From sequence record MZ501080: a DNA stretch of 47,149 bases; one strand, written 5' to 3'. Below are positions 21,652 through 46,155 of the stretch, in pieces (the first letter of the stretch is position 1; each line of letters starts with the position of its first letter). The notes below the pieces were generated by a model. The model saw nothing but the letters and a program-made list of their open reading frames with translations, was not told the origin of the DNA and made no database searches. Made by a program: the position numbers and the translations under genes. The DNA comes from Escherichia phage JeanPiccard.

Positions 21652-22034
21652 TTTACAATCCTCTCTCGTTGTTTGTGCGACTAACTATACCAGGTTTTGC
21701 GTCTGAGTTTTAGCTATTCGTGCTATTGCATACACGTAACAGATGTAACTTGATGTATACAATCTAATCCGCGGAAAATGATATACGCCAAGTTACGCAT
21801 GGTTACGCTATATTTACATTAAAATATCTATATATATCAACCATTTACTCTTATTATTATTATTATATATATTACTGTGTATATCATGTAACTACCTCTA
21901 TAGAGTGTTCCGGTTGCAATTTTAATATCATGTGGATTTATACAGTGTTGCACGGTGCTATACCAATGCACCCTCAGCAATAAATGATATACACGATATA
22001 CACACTAGTTACATTGAGCTATAGCTGATCTGAG
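21652..22034. promoter_or_regulatory. AT-rich divergent control region 1 (iteron-like repeats; candidate early promoters or origin)
   Basis: no ORFs; (ATT)n tract, GATATACAC tandem repeat, GTAAC/GTTAC and GTATAC repeats, TACACGTAAC; about 75 bp homologous to 40887..40960. Confidence 0.45.
21708..21726 (-). promoter_or_regulatory. dyad motif (minus orientation, copy e) upstream of methyltransferase gene
   Basis: TTTAGCTATTCGTGCTAT; followed on minus strand by TATAGT and leader before ATG 21651. Confidence 0.4.
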
Positions 22035-29142: not shown

Positions 29143-29616
29143 TTACTCTTTAGCTTTTCGTGCTGCTTCGTTGGCGGCCTTGATCTTGCGCCATGATCGA
29201 CACTCTGGCTTGGTGGCTAATTCAGCCTCAGTAACAACGCGCAGCATGTGACGTTTTTTGCATCGTAGTGTAAGCGGTTTTCCGTTACCGTCGAATTGCA
29301 GGTCCGGTCGACAGAATGTAGCGCGAAAACCTTCCCCAGTTCGTTTGTAGTAGTTATGCGACAGTTGAGCGCCACGTGCAGAAATCATACCACGCTTAAA
29401 CCATTCTTCCACGGCCTGAGGAGTTACCTTTAGCTGCTTTGCGATATTCGCCTTTGTGCCGAAGAAATCAAGTAGCATCTCAAGCCGCGCACGTAGCCCT
29501 GCCCTTACTTCATCTTTTAAAACGTAGTAGCCTGAAGGTCGTTTGCGCTTCTTTTTGTCTTCAGTGCGGACGGTTCCGTTATTCCCGTTAATGGTTCGCT
29601 TGTCTACTGCATTCAT
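29143..29616 (-). CDS. HTH DNA-binding protein (putative transcriptional regulator)
   Basis: helix-turn-helix-like segment ANIAKQLKVTPQAVEEWFKRG; basic termini. Confidence 0.55.
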   Translation of the reverse strand: MNAVDKRTINGNNGTVRTEDKKKRKRPSGYYVLKDEVRAGLRARLEMLLDFFGTKANIAKQLKVTPQAVEEWFKRGMISARGAQLSHNYYKRTGEGFRATFCRPDLQFDGNGKPLTLRCKKRHMLRVVTEAELATKPECRSWRKIKAANEAARKAKE

Positions 29617-31713: not shown

Positions 31714-32133
31714 ATGAAAATTACAGATAAGGTTGATTACATTGAGTTTTACCCAGGCCCTGTTAATTCATGCCCTAAAGAGGATGACGAACAAATCTTT
31801 TGCTCTGATTGGGTTAAGTATAACTATCCAGACATGGTGTTTTTCCACTGCGTGAATGAGGGTAAGAAAACAATTGGACAAGCAAGAAAAGACCAGGCTA
31901 AGGGTTTATTGAAGGGCGTATCTGACTGCATGTTTCTGATACCTGAATCTATCCGAGGCAAATACCCTTTCGGAGCCATAGAGCTAAAGAGGGCAGGAAA
32001 AACACAGGCAAGCCCAGTCAGTGACGAACAGAAGTCCTTCCTGAAAAGCGTAAGAGAATCAGGCGGCTTCGCGGCTGTAGCCTATGGTCGCGAGGGTTTT
32101 CTGGCAGCATTCAAAGAAATGATTTCAAAATAG
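31714..32133 (+). CDS. VRR-NUC domain nuclease
   Basis: 139 aa; segment GAIELKRAGKTQASPVSDEQKSFLKSV typical of VRR-NUC proteins; coupled to helicase. Confidence 0.6.
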   Translation: MKITDKVDYIEFYPGPVNSCPKEDDEQIFCSDWVKYNYPDMVFFHCVNEGKKTIGQARKDQAKGLLKGVSDCMFLIPESIRGKYPFGAIELKRAGKTQASPVSDEQKSFLKSVRESGGFAAVAYGREGFLAAFKEMISK

Positions 32134-32148
32134 CACGAATTGCTAAAG
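32131..32148 (+). promoter_or_regulatory. dyad motif TAGCACGAATTGCTAAAG (family copy i); TAG is the VRR-NUC stop
   Basis: exact 17-mer TAGCACGAATTGCTAAA shared with copies j, p, q. Confidence 0.45.
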
Positions 32149-32211
32149 GTATTTCGCAGGGATGCGATATAGTTACCCCATCGAAACGAAACACTAAAAG
32201 AGAGAAACAAA

Positions 32212-32415
32212 ATGGCCACTATCTACACCACTAAGAAATACATTTCACGTAAAACTGGTTACGAGTATAACCTGGTTCTTGATGACTCGCTCGGCATGCT
32301 TCTCGCTGACGCTGAAGATGCTGAATACTGCTTTGAAGTTAGCTCGACTTACAAAGATGATTTAGAAACTGTTAAAAACGTATTCGGCGAAAAATTTGAT
32401 GAGGTGTCAGAATGA
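32212..32415 (+). CDS. hypothetical small acidic protein (paralog A)
   Basis: 67 aa; C-terminal 23 aa identical to paralog B (YKDDLETVKNVFGEKFDEVSE). Confidence 0.55.
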   Translation: MATIYTTKKYISRKTGYEYNLVLDDSLGMLLADAEDAEYCFEVSSTYKDDLETVKNVFGEKFDEVSE

Positions 32416-32453
32416 GAGTGGTAGTTGTAAACTGGAAAACTGGAGAGGATTCA
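32347..32453 (+). repeat. 107-bp direct repeat, copy 1
   Basis: differs at 3 positions from 32658..32764. Confidence 0.85.
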
Positions 32454-32459
32454 AAATAG
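32412..32459 (+). pseudogene. truncated 5' remnant (15 codons) of small ORF duplicated at 32723..32881
   Basis: MRVVVVNWKTGEDS then premature TAG supplied by the dyad motif. Confidence 0.5.
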
Positions 32460-32474
32460 CACGAATTGCTAAAC
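32457..32474 (+). promoter_or_regulatory. dyad motif TAGCACGAATTGCTAAAC (family copy j)
   Basis: sits exactly at the junction where the duplicated segment ends. Confidence 0.45.
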
Positions 32475-32531
32475 TATGACGCATGGAAGCGTGTATTATC
32501 AACTCATCGAAAAGAAACTAGGAGAGAAAAA

Positions 32532-32726
32532 ATGAATACTATCTATACTGCTAAATTCTACGAATCACGCAAAACCGGTTACCAGTATGAATTAGTAATT
32601 ACAGATGACGGTTATTTTCTTGATGATGGTGAGGGGTACTCATTCGAAGTTAGCCCAACCTACAAGGATGATTTAGAGACTGTTAAAAACGTATTCGGCG
32701 AAAAATTTGATGAGGTGTCAGAATGA
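32532..32726 (+). CDS. hypothetical small acidic protein (paralog B)
   Basis: 64 aa from ATG 32532 (GGAGAG RBS); paralog of 32212..32415. Confidence 0.55.
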   Translation: MNTIYTAKFYESRKTGYQYELVITDDGYFLDDGEGYSFEVSPTYKDDLETVKNVFGEKFDEVSE

Positions 32727-32764
32727 GAGTGGTAGTTGTAAACTGGAAAACTGGAGAGGATTCA
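32658..32764 (+). repeat. 107-bp direct repeat, copy 2
   Basis: near-identical to 32347..32453. Confidence 0.85.
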
Positions 32765-32881
32765 GAATTCTTCTTCAATACATTCTCGCAATACATTGAT
32801 AAGTATGTTTTCGTTATTGATGGTGAGTGTGAGGTTGTTGTTCCTATTAAGCTAATTGATGGATTGGGAGTATCAGGATAA
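32723..32881 (+). CDS. hypothetical small protein (full-length copy of truncated ORF)
   Basis: 52 aa; ATGA overlap upstream and TAATG overlap downstream. Confidence 0.45.
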   Translation: MRVVVVNWKTGEDSEFFFNTFSQYIDKYVFVIDGECEVVVPIKLIDGLGVSG

Positions 32882-33102
32882 TGGCAATTTTTACATTTGA
32901 GAATCAATGGGAAGCATTTAAGGTAATGGCAGCGGAGGAATTATACAAGGCATATTATAAGCGTGATTTATGGGGATTGGTGCATTGCCTGGATATGAGC
33001 TTTGAAGAAGACTACCTGAACACCGATATCGAAACATGGCGAGACAGGATGGTTGCTGATATCGAAGAGATGAAAAAAGATTGCCCGGAGGATTTTTTAT
33101 GA
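32881..33102 (+). CDS. hypothetical protein
   Basis: 73 aa ORF, translationally coupled. Confidence 0.45.
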   Translation: MAIFTFENQWEAFKVMAAEELYKAYYKRDLWGLVHCLDMSFEEDYLNTDIETWRDRMVADIEEMKKDCPEDFL

Positions 33103-40523: not shown

Positions 40524-41230
40524 TTATTTCTCCTTTCCTCTCGTTTCTAGGACTGAATCATAGCAACCAACCACTGATAGGTCATTAGCAAAAAGTGCTA
40601 TTCGTTAGATTTATGGATTGTTGCAGATATTGAAATTATTATCATGATTATTGCACATATAGCAATATTGCTTCAGATGCAATGATGTTTTTGATTGTTG
40701 CGGATTGAGCAATGAAGTGGTGGGGGAGTGAATGAAAGATGGATGGACTAACATACAAGTTGATTTTGACTCCCGATAACCTATCCTGTGGTATACACGT
40801 AACCGCCGTATACTCAGTGTCGTCACAAAAGTTAGTGGACACTAACCTACGTTTTTTACGCCAATATACACTCGATATACAATATAATATCTATATATAT
40901 CAACCTTTTACTTTATTATTATTATTATTATTATATATATGTATACCGTGTATACCGGTCATGGATGGAATAGTTGATATGTTCCGCGCAGATATTCTGA
41001 CACTTGTCAGAAAGGGATGACATTGTAGGAATAAAAAGGCACATATATAGGAAATATCCTCAAAAATCTGTACACAGTGGATACGGCAGGTTTACAACCA
41101 GTGCCGGAGCGGGCTTGAGAGGCAAAATGCGTATCCATGATAAAATATACTAAAATATACATTGACCGACACGTAAATAGGTGGCAATATAGCAATCACT
41201 GAAACGAAGTAAACCAAACGAGGTATTAAC
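40524..41230. promoter_or_regulatory. AT-rich divergent control region 2 (homologous to region 1)
   Basis: no credible ORFs; shares ATATCTATATATATCAACC(A/T)TTTACT(C/T)TTATTATTATT core, TACACGTAAC and GTATAC repeats with 21652..22034. Confidence 0.45.
40585..40601 (-). promoter_or_regulatory. dyad motif (minus orientation, copy o)
   Basis: TTAGCAAAAAGTGCTAT is the reverse complement of ATAGCACTTTTTGCTAA. Confidence 0.35.
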
Positions 41231-41779: not shown

Positions 41780-42306
41780 TGTTTGATTTCAACGAAGAAA
41801 AGCTGACAGATGAGCAGGTCATGAGTATTGCGAAGCAGGATGGGATTCCCCCGCTACGGGTTGCAATCAATGCAAACGGGTATCGTCATGTTCAACACCT
41901 CTGGAGTCATCCTGATGCGTCATCAATCCACAAGGGTGAGGCTGTTGAGGTTCTGCTGACAGCGATAAGGACTGAATCTATAGCTCGCAGGGGAGTTGTT
42001 GGCTTACAGAAGTCTTATGACCTAATTAGGAAGCTAAAGAGGTTTAAAGGTGACAATGACGGGCTAATGGAGAGGATTAAGGACGAAATGATTCCAGAGC
42101 TAGAGAAAGCGAATCTCGTTTGCCTCATTGGAGATAAGATTTATGTCCACCCGGCTATCATTGAGGAGTCCTGGCAACCCAACTTCAAAACTTACGAAGG
42201 TGATCACACTAGTAGACTACCATACCACTTGCGGTACAGTGAGGCGGAGGTGGAAGAGGCTATTGAGTTCTACCGGAAGACTAAATCACTCCTGAATGGC
42301 GAATAG
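41779..42306 (+). CDS. domain-deleted paralog of the P-loop ATPase (N- and C-terminal modules only)
   Basis: MFDFNEEKLTDEQVMSIA..PPLRVAINANGYR and CLIGDKIYVHP match the ends of 37010..38593; no Walker motifs. Confidence 0.55.
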   Translation: MFDFNEEKLTDEQVMSIAKQDGIPPLRVAINANGYRHVQHLWSHPDASSIHKGEAVEVLLTAIRTESIARRGVVGLQKSYDLIRKLKRFKGDNDGLMERIKDEMIPELEKANLVCLIGDKIYVHPAIIEESWQPNFKTYEGDHTSRLPYHLRYSEAEVEEAIEFYRKTKSLLNGE

Positions 42307-42321
42307 CACGAATTGCTAAAC
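42304..42321 (+). promoter_or_regulatory. dyad motif TAGCACGAATTGCTAAAC (family copy p); TAG is the stop codon
   Basis: exact consensus copy. Confidence 0.45.
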
Positions 42322-42376
42322 AATGGATCGGGTAGTCAGCTATGATTACCCTATCAACAACGAAGAGGAAATGAAG

Positions 42377-42586
42377 ATGGAAGCTGTAATTATCGAAGAT
42401 TTCGCAGGTGACAGCACGGAGGTGTCGACTTCAGTATATTACGACGGCATCGTGAGCATTGACATTGACCTGGATAACTTAGGCGATAGATACACGCTCG
42501 CCCACTATACACCAGAGGCGGCCCGCAAATTGGCGGCGGCATTAATCCTGGCGGCGGACGAGGCGGACGAGGTGGAGAAAAAATGA
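42377..42586 (+). CDS. hypothetical acidic protein (start uncertain)
   Basis: GAGGAA RBS before ATG 42377; track ORF starts at 42323. Confidence 0.4.
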   Translation: MEAVIIEDFAGDSTEVSTSVYYDGIVSIDIDLDNLGDRYTLAHYTPEAARKLAAALILAADEADEVEKK

Positions 42587-42846
42587 AACGTTTAATGACA
42601 TGCATGACCATTATTGCGGCAATTATTGCTCTTACTGGTTGCGAGAAAGCACCGGAGGTTCAGATTCAGTCAGGTGAATTCAATGTGGAGCGTCTATTCA
42701 CAGTGGATGGATGTACCGCCTACCGATTCCGAGATAGCGGTAAAGCCGTCTACTACACAAATTGCCATGGCAGTACGCAGAGTGAGTACAAGTCCGGCAA
42801 GGTCACGAAACAAGAAATAGTTCAGACAAATCGCACGAATTGGTAA
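42583..42846 (+). CDS. lipoprotein
   Basis: signal peptide MKRLMTCMTIIAAIIALTG followed by Cys (lipobox LTGC); 87 aa. Confidence 0.55.
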   Translation: MKRLMTCMTIIAAIIALTGCEKAPEVQIQSGEFNVERLFTVDGCTAYRFRDSGKAVYYTNCHGSTQSEYKSGKVTKQEIVQTNRTNW

Positions 42847-43028
42847 AAGGGGATTCATCCTGACTGGTATAATCCAACGCATCAACCAAATGAATGGAAG
42901 TTAAGTGACGATATACGAACATAAATTCAGTAGCAGGGGTATTGATATGCTCCTGCACTATGTAGACGAAAAATACGCAAAGCTAATGCTTAAGACGCAT
43001 GGCGGCACAATAACGAGGATTAACATAA

Positions 43029-46077: not shown

Positions 46078-46155
46078 GCTCTGCTAGCTCAACAGGACAG
46101 CAGCAACGACCTTCTAAGTCGTAGGTTACTGGTTCGAATCCAGTGCGGAGCGCCA
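46078..46155 (+). tRNA. tRNA-Arg(TCT): tRNA-Arg (anticodon UCU), CCA encoded
   Basis: manual cloverleaf: acceptor GCTCTGC/GCGGAGC (one G-U pair), anticodon stem ACGAC/GTCGT with loop CTTCTAA, T-arm ACTGG-TTCGAAT-CCAGT, discriminator G, then CCA. Confidence 0.7.

What the first reader, a model, noticed from the sequence alone, without database searches (positions are those of the whole stretch)
32347..32764. 107-bp near-identical direct repeat marks a recent tandem duplication of a small gene pair, with the dyad motif at the junction
Segments 32347-32453 and 32658-32764 differ at only 3 positions. They carry the 3' end of two paralogous 64-67 aa genes (identical C-terminus YKDDLETVKNVFGEKFDEVSE) plus the start of an overlapping downstream ORF (MRVVVVNWKTGEDS). 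In copy 1 that ORF is cut after 15 codons by the TAG of a dyad motif (32457); in copy 2 it continues for 52 codons. This shows duplication or recombination in progress at a motif site.
Basis: seen in the sequence. Interest (0 to 1): 0.65.

Follow-up and report, generated by a model that had tools for sequence, protein, structure and literature searches.

The report
Two-allele tandem duplication in a coliphage
An Rtp/T1-like coliphage carries two old, diverged versions of one small early gene side by side, each with its own promoter; this looks like an ordinary recombination product, but it shows clearly how a repeated promoter motif marks the places where these phages gain and lose genes.

Summary
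Segments 32347-32453 and 32658-32764 differ at 3 of 107 positions, and the last 86 nt of the repeat are identical. The truncated 15-codon ORF ends at the TAG of the motif.

This is a head-to-tail pair of units of 326 and 311 bp. Each unit holds the motif, a promoter, a phrog_6031 gene and the start of the 52-aa gene. It is not a simple recent duplication:
- The 5' two-thirds of the two genes are about 60% identical, with synonymous sites saturated.
- Each 5' part groups with a different single-copy allele in other phages. Copy 1 is 98% identical to RobRod40. Copy 2 is 93-97% identical to BEK6 and an ENA contig.
- Only the motif (24/24) and the 3' tail are shared. Both tails carry an Ala-to-Val change seen in no relative.
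- The three mismatches are the end of the RobRod40-like patch.

All of about 115 GenBank relatives, and every related contig checked, have one copy. The outer boundaries and the junction carry TTCAAAAT / TTCAAAAT / TTCAGAAT, which is the signature of microhomology-mediated duplication.

The motif is the published T1-family 21-nt repeat. Here it bounds cassette gains and losses, with four different inserts at this same site in relatives, much like PeSL cassettes of T4-type phages. An assembly artefact cannot be excluded without reads. The finding is ordinary in kind and modest in interest.

The parts
31714..32133 (+). VRR-NUC nuclease gene (139 aa). Its stop codon TAG (32131-32133) is the TAG of motif copy 1. 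This is the left flank of the duplication.
   Evidence: ORF list. Pfam VRR_NUC at E 1.5e-8, above the curated cut-off. 87-90% DNA identity to relatives.
32124..32131 (+). Left microhomology, TTCAAAAT.
   Evidence: Sequence of the three boundary sites printed side by side.
32130..32147 (+). Motif copy 1, ATAGCACGAATTGCTAAA. This is the T1-family direct repeat, with the dyad TAGCA-N5-TGCTA.
   Evidence: It matches the published TLS consensus aaATAGCACnnnTTGnTAAAA.
32148..32211 (+). Promoter and leader 1: a 20-nt spacer containing the small hairpin CGCAGGGATGCG, a -10-like TATAGT (32168-32173), the conserved CATCGAAACGAAAC, and a ribosome-binding site.
   Evidence: a 63-nt family with 7 copies. 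The spacer matches the promoter of the same gene in ENA contig L019 at 39/40.
32212..32415 (+). Copy 1 of the phrog_6031 gene (67 aa, 'long-loop' allele). Bases 32212-32367 are RobRod40-type.
   Evidence: phrog_6031 at E 4.8e-27. 97% amino-acid and 97.8% DNA identity to RobRod40; about 70% amino-acid identity to all other relatives.
32347..32453 (+). Repeat copy A, the tail of unit 1. From 32368 onward it is identical to unit 2.
32412..32459 (+). 15-codon stub of the 52-aa gene (MRVVVVNWKTGEDSK*). Its start overlaps the stop of copy 1 (ATGA).
   Evidence: Sequence. Homology to the full gene at 32723-32881.
32450..32457 (+). Duplication junction: a single TTCAAAAT joining the 52-aa-gene stub to the motif.
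   Evidence: This junction is absent from IMG/VR, JGI metagenome contigs and GTDB genomes, apart from one chance hit.
32456..32473 (+). Motif copy 2, ATAGCACGAATTGCTAAA.
32474..32531 (+). Promoter and leader 2: a spacer with the hairpin CGCATGGAAGCG, a -10-like TATTAT (32494-32499), CATCGAAAAGAAAC, and the ribosome-binding site AGGAG.
   Evidence: The spacer matches IMG/VR contig L010 at 37/40.
32532..32726 (+). Copy 2 of the phrog_6031 gene (64 aa, 'short-loop' allele). Its 5' part is BEK6/L019-type.
   Evidence: phrog_6031 at E 1.6e-33. 93.8% amino-acid identity to BEK6 and 97% to P0001/L019.
32658..32764 (+). Repeat copy B, the tail of unit 2.
   Evidence: 97.2% identical to T145P1.
32723..32881 (+). 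Intact 52-aa accessory gene (phrog_22569). Among the distinct relatives examined it is present only in T145P1, SU57, DTL and Sd1.
32761..32768 (+). Right microhomology, TTCAGAAT. SU57, DTL and Sd1 have TTCAAAAT at this position.

Best explanation
The window is a Braunvirinae (Rtp/T1-like, Drexlerviridae) coliphage genome. The locus is a real tandem duplication holding two different alleles of a promoter-led early-gene unit.

An unequal (illegitimate) recombination or template switch occurred between two short matching sequences. One is TTCAAAAT at the VRR-NUC stop codon, which is the upstream edge of the promoter-associated repeat. The other is TTCA(A/G)AAT at codons 13-15 of the 52-aa gene. 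This placed two [motif - promoter - phrog_6031 gene - 15-codon stub] units head to tail.

Short-patch homologous recombination with other phages of the same gene pool also took place, either before or after the duplication. It left unit 1 with a RobRod40-type 5' gene segment and unit 2 with a BEK6-type one. The motif and the 3' tail are still the window's own sequence in both units.

An equivalent route is a PeSL-style event. In that route a small circle, closed at the TTCAAAAT microhomology, integrates by a crossover within the motif downstream of VRR-NUC. This reproduces the observed gene order.

The outcome is that the phage encodes both major allele classes of this acidic, all-beta 64-67 aa protein, each behind its own motif and -10 element, plus a probably inert 15-aa stub. 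The 89-nt and 24-nt direct repeats make the arrangement easy to lose by recombination, giving back either single allele. It may therefore be a transient intermediate of allele replacement.

Shown: the anatomy, the single-copy state in relatives, the mosaic ancestry, the microhomology at the three boundary sites, and the cassette boundaries at motifs. Inferred: the order of events, expression of both copies, and any selective benefit.
For: 1. Repeat and unit anatomy.
- Identity between the units is 24/24 in the motif, 38/65 in the promoter remainder, 81/135 in the gene 5' part, 104/107 in the tail, and 88/89 in the last 89 nt.

2. The 5' parts are old alleles.
- pS is 0.70-0.83 in codons 1-45.
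- In the tail there are 3 synonymous and 0 non-synonymous differences.

3. The two copies have different nearest relatives.
- Copy 1 5' part: 97.8% to RobRod40, against about 74% to the others.
- Copy 2 5' part: 92.7% to BEK6 and 97% amino-acid identity to L019.
- Tails and the 52-aa gene: 97-98% to T145P1.

4. The tail identity arose within this genome.
- Both copies share bases found in none of 14 relatives compared at the DNA level.
- One of these bases gives Ala to Val in KNVFGEKF. All 18 other family members aligned have A, E or C there.
- The four copy-1-type genes found elsewhere have A or E at that position, and none is followed by a 52-aa gene.

5. Relatives have one copy.
- 111 GenBank phage records (111 places) match copy 1, and 114 records (116 places) match copy 2.
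- The one two-place record I fetched is a record-end overlap, not a second copy.
- About 37 fetched loci, some of them the same contigs fetched twice, all show one copy.

6. Microhomology signature.
- The left boundary, junction and right boundary read TTCAAAAT, TTCAAAAT and TTCAGAAT.
- The right site is 8/8 in SU57, DTL and Sd1.
- The geometry is the same as in the T4 dmd-tifA amplifications, where 6-10 bp microhomologies flank the unit and one remains between repeats (PMC9391042).

7. Motifs bound cassettes.
- Four different motif-bounded inserts occur at this exact site: BEK6, L019, L038 and the window.
- At 42303/42830 there are three states: BEK6 has no cassette and one chimeric motif, the window has cassette A, and RobRod40 has cassette B.
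- 34 of 189 alignment breakpoints lie within 10 nt of a motif, against 3 expected.

8. Both genes look intact.
- They are full length, keep all family-invariant residues, and have ribosome-binding sites and -10-like boxes at the family's fixed spacing.
Against: - No reads are available, so the junction is supported by this one assembly only. The exact junction occurs nowhere else in the collections scanned.
- The microhomology is short: 4 nt perfect, or 7 of 8 in the present sequence.
- The enrichment of breakpoints at motifs falls to about 2-fold when only crude intergenic positions are considered (17/65 against 12% expected). Part of the association therefore reflects the motifs being intergenic.
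- Promoter activity is not shown. TTGCTA lies 22 nt from the -10 box, and the consensus scan finds no canonical sigma-70 promoter here.
- The protein's function is unknown: no Pfam or PADLOC match and no significant PDB fold match. Any benefit of carrying two alleles is conjecture.
Confidence: 0.75

Rival explanations
1. Simple recent tandem duplication of one resident unit, with the two copies later diverging by point mutation.
For: The arrangement is head to tail. The 3' 89 nt (88/89) and the 24-nt motif are identical or nearly so. The boundaries carry microhomology.
Against: Identity drops abruptly to about 60% in the promoter and gene 5' part, with saturated synonymous sites. This is incompatible with a tail that has no substitutions after 32367. 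Each 5' part has a near-identical counterpart as the single copy of another phage: 97.8% to RobRod40 and 93-97% to BEK6/L019. The differences were therefore imported, not accumulated in place.
Confidence: 0.03
2. Ancient paralogous gene pair kept in this lineage, with the 3' ends homogenised by recent gene conversion.
For: The 5' parts are diverged and the 3' tract is identical, which is the classic conversion pattern.
Against: No other genome or contig has two copies: about 115 GenBank phages plus IMG/VR, JGI, ENA and Logan loci. Both alleles occur elsewhere as the sole copy at the same position. Copy 1 carries a stub of the 52-aa gene, which its own allele lineage lacks. The junction has a fresh microhomology signature.
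Confidence: 0.07
3. Assembly artefact. A mixed population of two related phages, one carrying each allele, was collapsed into one contig that runs through both variants in series.
For: The two units look like alleles from two lineages. The shared motif (24 nt) and tail (89 nt) are the kind of repeats that confuse assemblers. No independent assembly contains the junction. The window's exact proteins are not in the contig collection.
Against: The junction joins codon 15 of the 52-aa gene to the motif through only 4-8 nt of shared sequence. That is far shorter than any assembler k-mer or overlap, so reads carrying GGATTCAAAATAGCACG must exist. A bubble mis-traversal would reuse an existing long repeat rather than create a new junction inside a gene. 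Both tails share private substitutions, which is not expected for two independent strains.
Confidence: 0.12

Closest known systems
Microhomology-mediated tandem segmental amplification in phage T4 (dmd-tifA locus, rII, genes 16-18; Srikant et al. 2022, PMC9391042)
   Same: Head-to-tail units. A short (6-10 bp) microhomology sits at both outer boundaries, and a single copy remains between the repeats (compared). The unit contains small early, possibly anti-host, genes. The phage packages by the headful mechanism, so extra DNA is tolerated.
   Different: Here there are two copies only. The interiors are different alleles rather than identical copies. The event is natural, not selected in the laboratory. 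No selective agent is known.
PeSL (promoter-early stem-loop) mobile regulatory cassettes of T4-type phages (Arbiol et al. 2010, PMC2839356; Comeau et al. 2014, PMC4122927)
   Same: A repeated intergenic unit of roughly 60-100 bp that begins at the upstream gene's stop codon and holds a promoter-like element, a small stem-loop, a Shine-Dalgarno sequence and a start codon. Gene cassettes that differ between related phages are bounded by two copies, and the 'empty' genome has one chimeric copy (compared). Integration of a mini-circle at a motif would give exactly the observed order.
   Different: The sequence is unrelated and the phage family is different (siphovirus, Drexlerviridae). The dyad has a 5-bp stem with no U-tract and folds no better than shuffled sequence, so it does not look like a terminator. 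The spacing from the -35-like hexamer to the -10 box is 22 nt rather than the canonical distance. The right-hand join of this unit lies in a microhomology inside a gene, not in a pre-existing motif. Mini-circles have not been tested.
21-nt direct repeats of phage TLS and other T1-like phages (German et al. 2024, PMC11447400)
   Same: This is the same element. The consensus is aaATAGCACnnnTTGnTAAAA, with about 20 copies per genome, oriented with transcription, about 76 nt upstream of start codons, and with GAA, TTT and AAA sub-classes (compared).
   Different: The paper proposes stoperator, enhancer-site or UP-element roles and does not discuss recombination. Here the repeats coincide with cassette and duplication boundaries.
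phrog_6031 (Rtp gp55 homologues), small proteins of unknown function
   Same: Both copies match the profile over their full length, at E 5e-27 and 2e-33. They sit at the same position downstream of VRR-NUC as in Rtp, SU57, RobRod40 and BEK6.
   Different: This is the only genome seen with two members.

Membership tests
Microhomology-mediated tandem segmental duplication | Two or more units arranged head to tail with nothing between them | tested here: met
   Units 32124-32449 and 32450-32760, with spacings of 326 and 311 nt.
Microhomology-mediated tandem segmental duplication | The same short sequence at the left boundary, the junction and the right boundary | tested here: met
   TTCAAAAT (32124), TTCAAAAT (32450) and TTCAGAAT (32761). 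The right site is 8/8 in SU57, DTL and Sd1.
Microhomology-mediated tandem segmental duplication | Single-copy state in close relatives | tested here: met
   One copy in 111-114 GenBank records and in all fetched loci.
Microhomology-mediated tandem segmental duplication | Units are copies of one another throughout | tested here: not met
   Only the motif and the tail are shared. The interiors are about 60% identical and come from different lineages. Extra recombination patches, or an event between two different genomes, are needed to explain this.
PeSL-type mobile regulatory cassette | A repeated intergenic motif that carries a functional early promoter | tested here: inconclusive
   There are 20 copies, with a -10-like box 19-20 nt after the motif and a conserved leader. 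BPROM calls it a promoter in SU57. The -35 to -10 spacing is 22 nt and the consensus scan is negative. Promoter activity was not measured.
PeSL-type mobile regulatory cassette | A stem-loop that acts as a terminator or attenuator | tested here: not met
   The dyad has a 5-bp stem, a 5-nt loop and no U-run. Fold z-scores are -0.5 to -0.9.
PeSL-type mobile regulatory cassette | Insertions and deletions between related genomes are bounded by two motif copies, with one chimeric motif in the empty state | tested here: met
   Window 42303/42830 compared with BEK6 and RobRod40. Four different cassettes occur after VRR-NUC: BEK6, L019, L038 and the window.
PeSL-type mobile regulatory cassette | Excised mini-circles detectable in infected cells or virions | not testable with these tools
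   This needs outward-facing PCR on phage DNA.
T1-family 21-nt direct repeat (TLS DR) | Match to aaATAGCACnnnTTGnTAAAA, oriented with transcription, about 76 nt upstream of a start codon | tested here: met
   Both copies read AAATAGCACGAATTGCTAAA. They lie 84 and 78 nt from the consensus start to the ATG.
phrog_6031 protein family | Full-length profile match | tested here: met
   E 4.8e-27 and 1.6e-33, covering profile positions 1-66 of 66.

The most novel reading that the evidence does not exclude
The T1-family repeat ATAGCACnnnTTGnTAAA, together with its promoter and leader, is the Drexlerviridae counterpart of PeSLs. On this reading it is a portable 'stop + restart' regulatory cassette whose copies act as preferred crossover points for gaining, losing and swapping small early genes. 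The tandem pair would then be such an exchange caught midway. It might also be kept because carrying both the long-loop and short-loop alleles of the acidic phrog_6031 protein widens the range of host targets or defences the phage can handle. That would be heterozygote advantage fixed by duplication.
Probability: 0.3. Interest if true: 0.55.

Novelty: new member of a known kind. Interest (0 to 1): 0.33.

Why it matters
As a single event it is minor: a 0.3-kb duplication of a gene of unknown function.

Its value is as a clean natural snapshot of how small virulent siphophages shuffle early genes. The locus shows ancestry changing every 50-150 bp, a duplication junction with a microhomology signature, and a previously described but functionally unassigned repeat sitting at the cassette boundaries.

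If the motif-mediated shuffling reading holds, it gives a concrete and testable role to the T1-family repeats. It also identifies the spot after VRR-NUC as a natural 'landing pad' for accessory genes, which could be useful for engineering Drexlerviridae phages used in therapy.

The two-allele state also offers a simple genetic test of what phrog_6031 does: delete either copy and compare plating efficiency on a panel of E. coli strains.

Tried and rejected
- Junction searches. I searched for the exact junction (22-28-mers) in IMG/VR, JGI metagenome contigs and GTDB genomes. There were no true hits. The single GTDB hit, in an Ignavibacterium MAG, shares 24 nt inside a cell-division-type gene and has no other similarity, so it is chance.
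- Exact-protein look-ups. Copy 1, VRR-NUC and the 52-aa protein are not on record, so no independent assembly of this genome was found.
- Function of the small protein. There is no Pfam match, only a PHROG of unknown function, and no meaningful PADLOC hit. The AlphaFold model (pLDDT 84, six strands) has no PDB neighbour with E below 0.2. I dropped the DNA-mimic / anti-defence idea as unsupported beyond the net charge of -8 to -9.
- RNA explanations. Rfam finds only the tRNA at 46078-46152. The motif and promoter regions do not fold better than shuffles. I rejected a terminator or riboregulator reading of the dyad.
- Canonical sigma-70 promoter. The scan found none at either motif.
- A second copy in another phage. 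The record MK907272 shows two 'places', but this is a gene split across the ends of a permuted record.
- Literature. I found no report linking the T1-family repeats to recombination in the library searched.

Full report
**What the window is.** Megablast of the locus and of the right-hand 25 kb finds only Braunvirinae (Drexlerviridae, Rtp/T1-like) coliphages. The nearest are Veterinaerplatzvirus T145P1 genomes, at about 88% identity over about 73% of the query. The gene order around the finding matches that of Rtp, SU57, RobRod40 and BEK6. It runs: helicase, VRR-NUC nuclease, a run of small genes of unknown function, then a DNA-repair exonuclease.

**The observation.**
- Segments 32347-32453 and 32658-32764 differ at 3 of 107 positions (32349, 32355, 32367).
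- From 32368 to 32456, 88 of 89 bases match.
- The pair extends at 90% identity to 32313-32457 / 32624-32768.
- A second, exact 24-nt repeat, TTCAAAATAGCACGAATTGCTAAA, lies at 32124 and 32450.
- No other long coding repeat exists in the window.
Copy 1 is 32212-32415 (67 aa) and copy 2 is 32532-32726 (64 aa). A 15-codon stub at 32412-32459 ends at the motif's TAG. The intact 52-aa gene is at 32723-32881.

**Anatomy.** The locus consists of two head-to-tail units of 326 and 311 bp. Each unit contains, in order:
- the motif;
- a 20-nt spacer holding a small GC hairpin;
- a -10-like hexamer (TATAGT or TATTAT);
- a conserved leader (CATCGAAA[C/A]GAAAC);
- a ribosome-binding site;
- a phrog_6031 gene;
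- the first 42-45 nt of the 52-aa gene.

Identity between the two units is sharply bimodal:

| Segment | Identity |
|---|---|
| Motif | 24/24 |
| Rest of the promoter | 38/65 |
| Gene 5' part | 81/135 |
| Tail | 104/107 |

Synonymous sites are saturated in codons 1-45 (pS 0.70-0.83). In the tail there are three synonymous differences, all within the first seven codons, and none after that.

**Relatives have one copy.**
- tblastn of copy 1 and copy 2 against 50,697 phage records finds 111 and 114 records, essentially one place each.
- The one two-place record I fetched is a gene split across the ends of a permuted record.
- About 37 loci fetched from GenBank, IMG/VR, JGI, ENA and Logan, some of them the same contigs fetched twice, each have one copy.
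- In the usual arrangement the gene lies 76-91 nt after VRR-NUC, with one motif in between.
- The exact junction sequence is absent from IMG/VR, the JGI metagenomes and the GTDB genomes. The single hit there is a chance 24-mer in an Ignavibacterium gene.

**Ancestry is mosaic at the 50-150 bp scale**.

Unit 1:
- The promoter spacer matches, at 39/40, the promoter of the same gene in ENA contig L019.
- The gene from the start to 32367 is 97.8% RobRod40-type. All other relatives are about 74% identical there.
- From 32368 onward it is identical to unit 2.

Unit 2:
- The spacer matches IMG/VR contig L010 at 37/40.
- The gene 5' part is 92.7% identical to BEK6 and 97% (amino acid) to L019.
- The tail and the 52-aa gene are 97-98% identical to T145P1.

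The three mismatches of the 107-bp repeat are all RobRod40-lineage bases. They mark the end of that imported patch, not mutations that arose after the duplication.

Both tails share bases found in none of 14 relatives compared. One of these changes Ala to Val in KNVFGEKF. All 18 aligned family members, and the four copy-1-type genes found elsewhere, have A, E or C at that position. Copy-1-type alleles elsewhere are never followed by a 52-aa gene, yet copy 1 here carries its first 15 codons. The tail of unit 1 is therefore this genome's own sequence, duplicated or converted very recently. The 5' parts are old alleles drawn from the shared gene pool.

**How the junction formed.** The three boundary sites read as follows:

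| Site | Sequence |
|---|---|
| Left | ...ATGATTTCAAAATAGCACG... |
| Junction | ...GAGGATTCAAAATAGCACG... |
| Right | ...GAGGATTCAGAATTCTTC... |

- The shared sequence is TTCAAAAT. It matches 7 of 8 at the right-hand site here and 8 of 8 in SU57, DTL and Sd1.
- One microhomology at each outer edge and one at the junction is the same signature described for the T4 dmd-tifA amplifications, which use 6-10 bp microhomologies (PMC9391042).
- The join is therefore an illegitimate recombination or a template switch. The left partner happens to be the VRR-NUC stop codon, which is also the 5' edge of the motif. As a result the duplicated unit carries its own promoter.

**The motif.**
- It is the 21-nt direct repeat published for phage TLS (aaATAGCACnnnTTGnTAAAA). 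That paper reports 21 copies, about 76 nt upstream of start codons, and notes the repeat in T1, Rtp and Rogue1. Its function is unassigned (PMC11447400).
- The window has 20 copies, against a mean of 0.56 in shuffles, in the same GAA, TTT and AAA classes.
- A -10-like hexamer follows 19-20 nt after the motif, followed by a conserved leader.
- In 15 of the 20 copies the upstream ORF's stop codon lies inside or against the motif.
- TTGCTA lies 22 nt from the -10 box, which is too far for a canonical sigma-70 promoter. BPROM nevertheless annotates it as a promoter in SU57.
- By my arithmetic the dyad TAGCA-N5-TGCTA would be centred near -42, a position typical of a class II activator site. This is inference only.
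- A weak Cro-like HTH protein is encoded at 29143-29616 on the minus strand (below the Pfam cut-off). It is an untested candidate binder.
- The dyad is not a convincing terminator.

**Motifs as cassette boundaries.**
- At the very site of the finding, three other genomes carry unrelated inserts bounded by two motif copies. BEK6 has a 60-aa gene, L019 has 67-aa and 59-aa genes, and L038 has 126-aa and 42-aa genes.
- At 42303/42830 the window has an 87-aa-gene cassette between two motifs. BEK6 has the same flanks joined through one chimeric motif. RobRod40 has a different gene between the same flanks.
- 34 of 189 alignment breakpoints against three relatives fall within 10 nt of a motif, against 3 expected genome-wide. 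The enrichment is about 2-fold when restricted to crude intergenic sequence.
- This is the pattern described for PeSL cassettes of T4-type phages (PMC2839356). A PeSL-style integration at the VRR-NUC motif, by a circle closed at TTCAAAAT, would give exactly the observed order.

**Function.** Both copies match phrog_6031, which has no known function. There is no Pfam or PADLOC match. An AlphaFold model (pLDDT 84) is a small six-stranded sheet with no significant PDB neighbour. The proteins are acidic, with 15 D+E against 6-7 K+R. The family has conserved ends and a variable central hairpin that comes in a short and a long form. The window carries one of each. Whether that matters is unknown.

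**Verdict.** The repeat is real and far beyond chance. It marks a tandem pair that is unique among known relatives. It is a stacking of two old alleles, made by microhomology-mediated unequal recombination plus short-patch homologous exchange. It is not a simple fresh duplication. The association with the motif is real and fits a wider, PeSL-like role of the T1-family repeat at module boundaries. An assembly artefact is unlikely on the logic of the junction but cannot be excluded without reads. The phenomenon is of a known kind, the specific instance is new, and interest is modest.

Noticed in passing
window 32130 (motif after VRR-NUC); L005 33195-33540; L019 2520-2975; L038 609-1436: The position directly after the VRR-NUC stop codon is a hot spot for inserts. 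Four unrelated inserts, each bounded by two exact copies of ATAGCACGAATTGCTAAA, occur there in different phages: a 60-aa gene, 67-aa and 59-aa genes, 126-aa and 42-aa genes, and the duplicated unit here.
   Followed up: partly
window 42303-42847: An 87-aa-gene cassette lies between two motif copies. BEK6 has the same flanks joined by one chimeric motif and no cassette. RobRod40 has a different 744-bp gene between the same flanks. This is a three-state polymorphism bounded by motifs.
   Followed up: partly
window, 20 motif sites (504, 9221, 13231, 20978-, 21726-, 24011, 28097, 29629, 32130, 32456, 33284, 35198, 38667-, 39450-, 40601-, 42303, 42830, 43647, 44280, 45209): In 15 of 20 motif copies the upstream ORF's stop codon is the motif's TAG, the motif's terminal TAA, or a TAA directly abutting the motif. 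A -10-like hexamer follows 19-20 nt later, and then comes a conserved CATCGAAACGA leader. Together these form a compact 'stop + restart' unit of about 63 nt.
   Followed up: partly
window 21793-21890 and 40856-40952: Two AT-rich stretches of about 100 nt are about 79% identical to each other. They contain (TTA)n and TATATA runs. Both lie just beyond minus-strand motif copies, at 21726 and 40601. They might be divergent early-promoter regions or origin-like regions.
   Followed up: no
window 32067-32105: A terminator-like hairpin (13 pairs, then GTTTTCTGGC) lies inside the 3' end of the VRR-NUC coding sequence, about 25 nt before the motif. It could attenuate read-through into the promoter cassette.
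   Followed up: no
window 29143-29616 (-): A 157-aa protein with a weak Cro/YdaS-like helix-turn-helix (P22_Cro, 26 bits, below the cut-off). It is transcribed divergently from the helicase and is annotated 'transcriptional regulator' in RobRod40. It is a candidate binder of the dyad motif.
   Followed up: no
window 32723-32881: The 52-aa gene (phrog_22569) is itself accessory. Among the distinct relatives examined it is present only in T145P1, SU57, DTL and Sd1. It is slotted between phrog_6031 and the 73-aa gene, with overlapping ATGA and TAATG start/stop junctions.
   Followed up: partly
window 32881-33102: The 73-aa gene immediately to the right is 93% identical to Rtp but only 74% to T145P1, while the 52-aa gene just before it is 98% identical to T145P1. 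This is another sharp mosaic breakpoint at a gene boundary.
   Followed up: no
window 46078-46152: A single tRNA gene, annotated tRNA-Arg in relatives.
   Followed up: no
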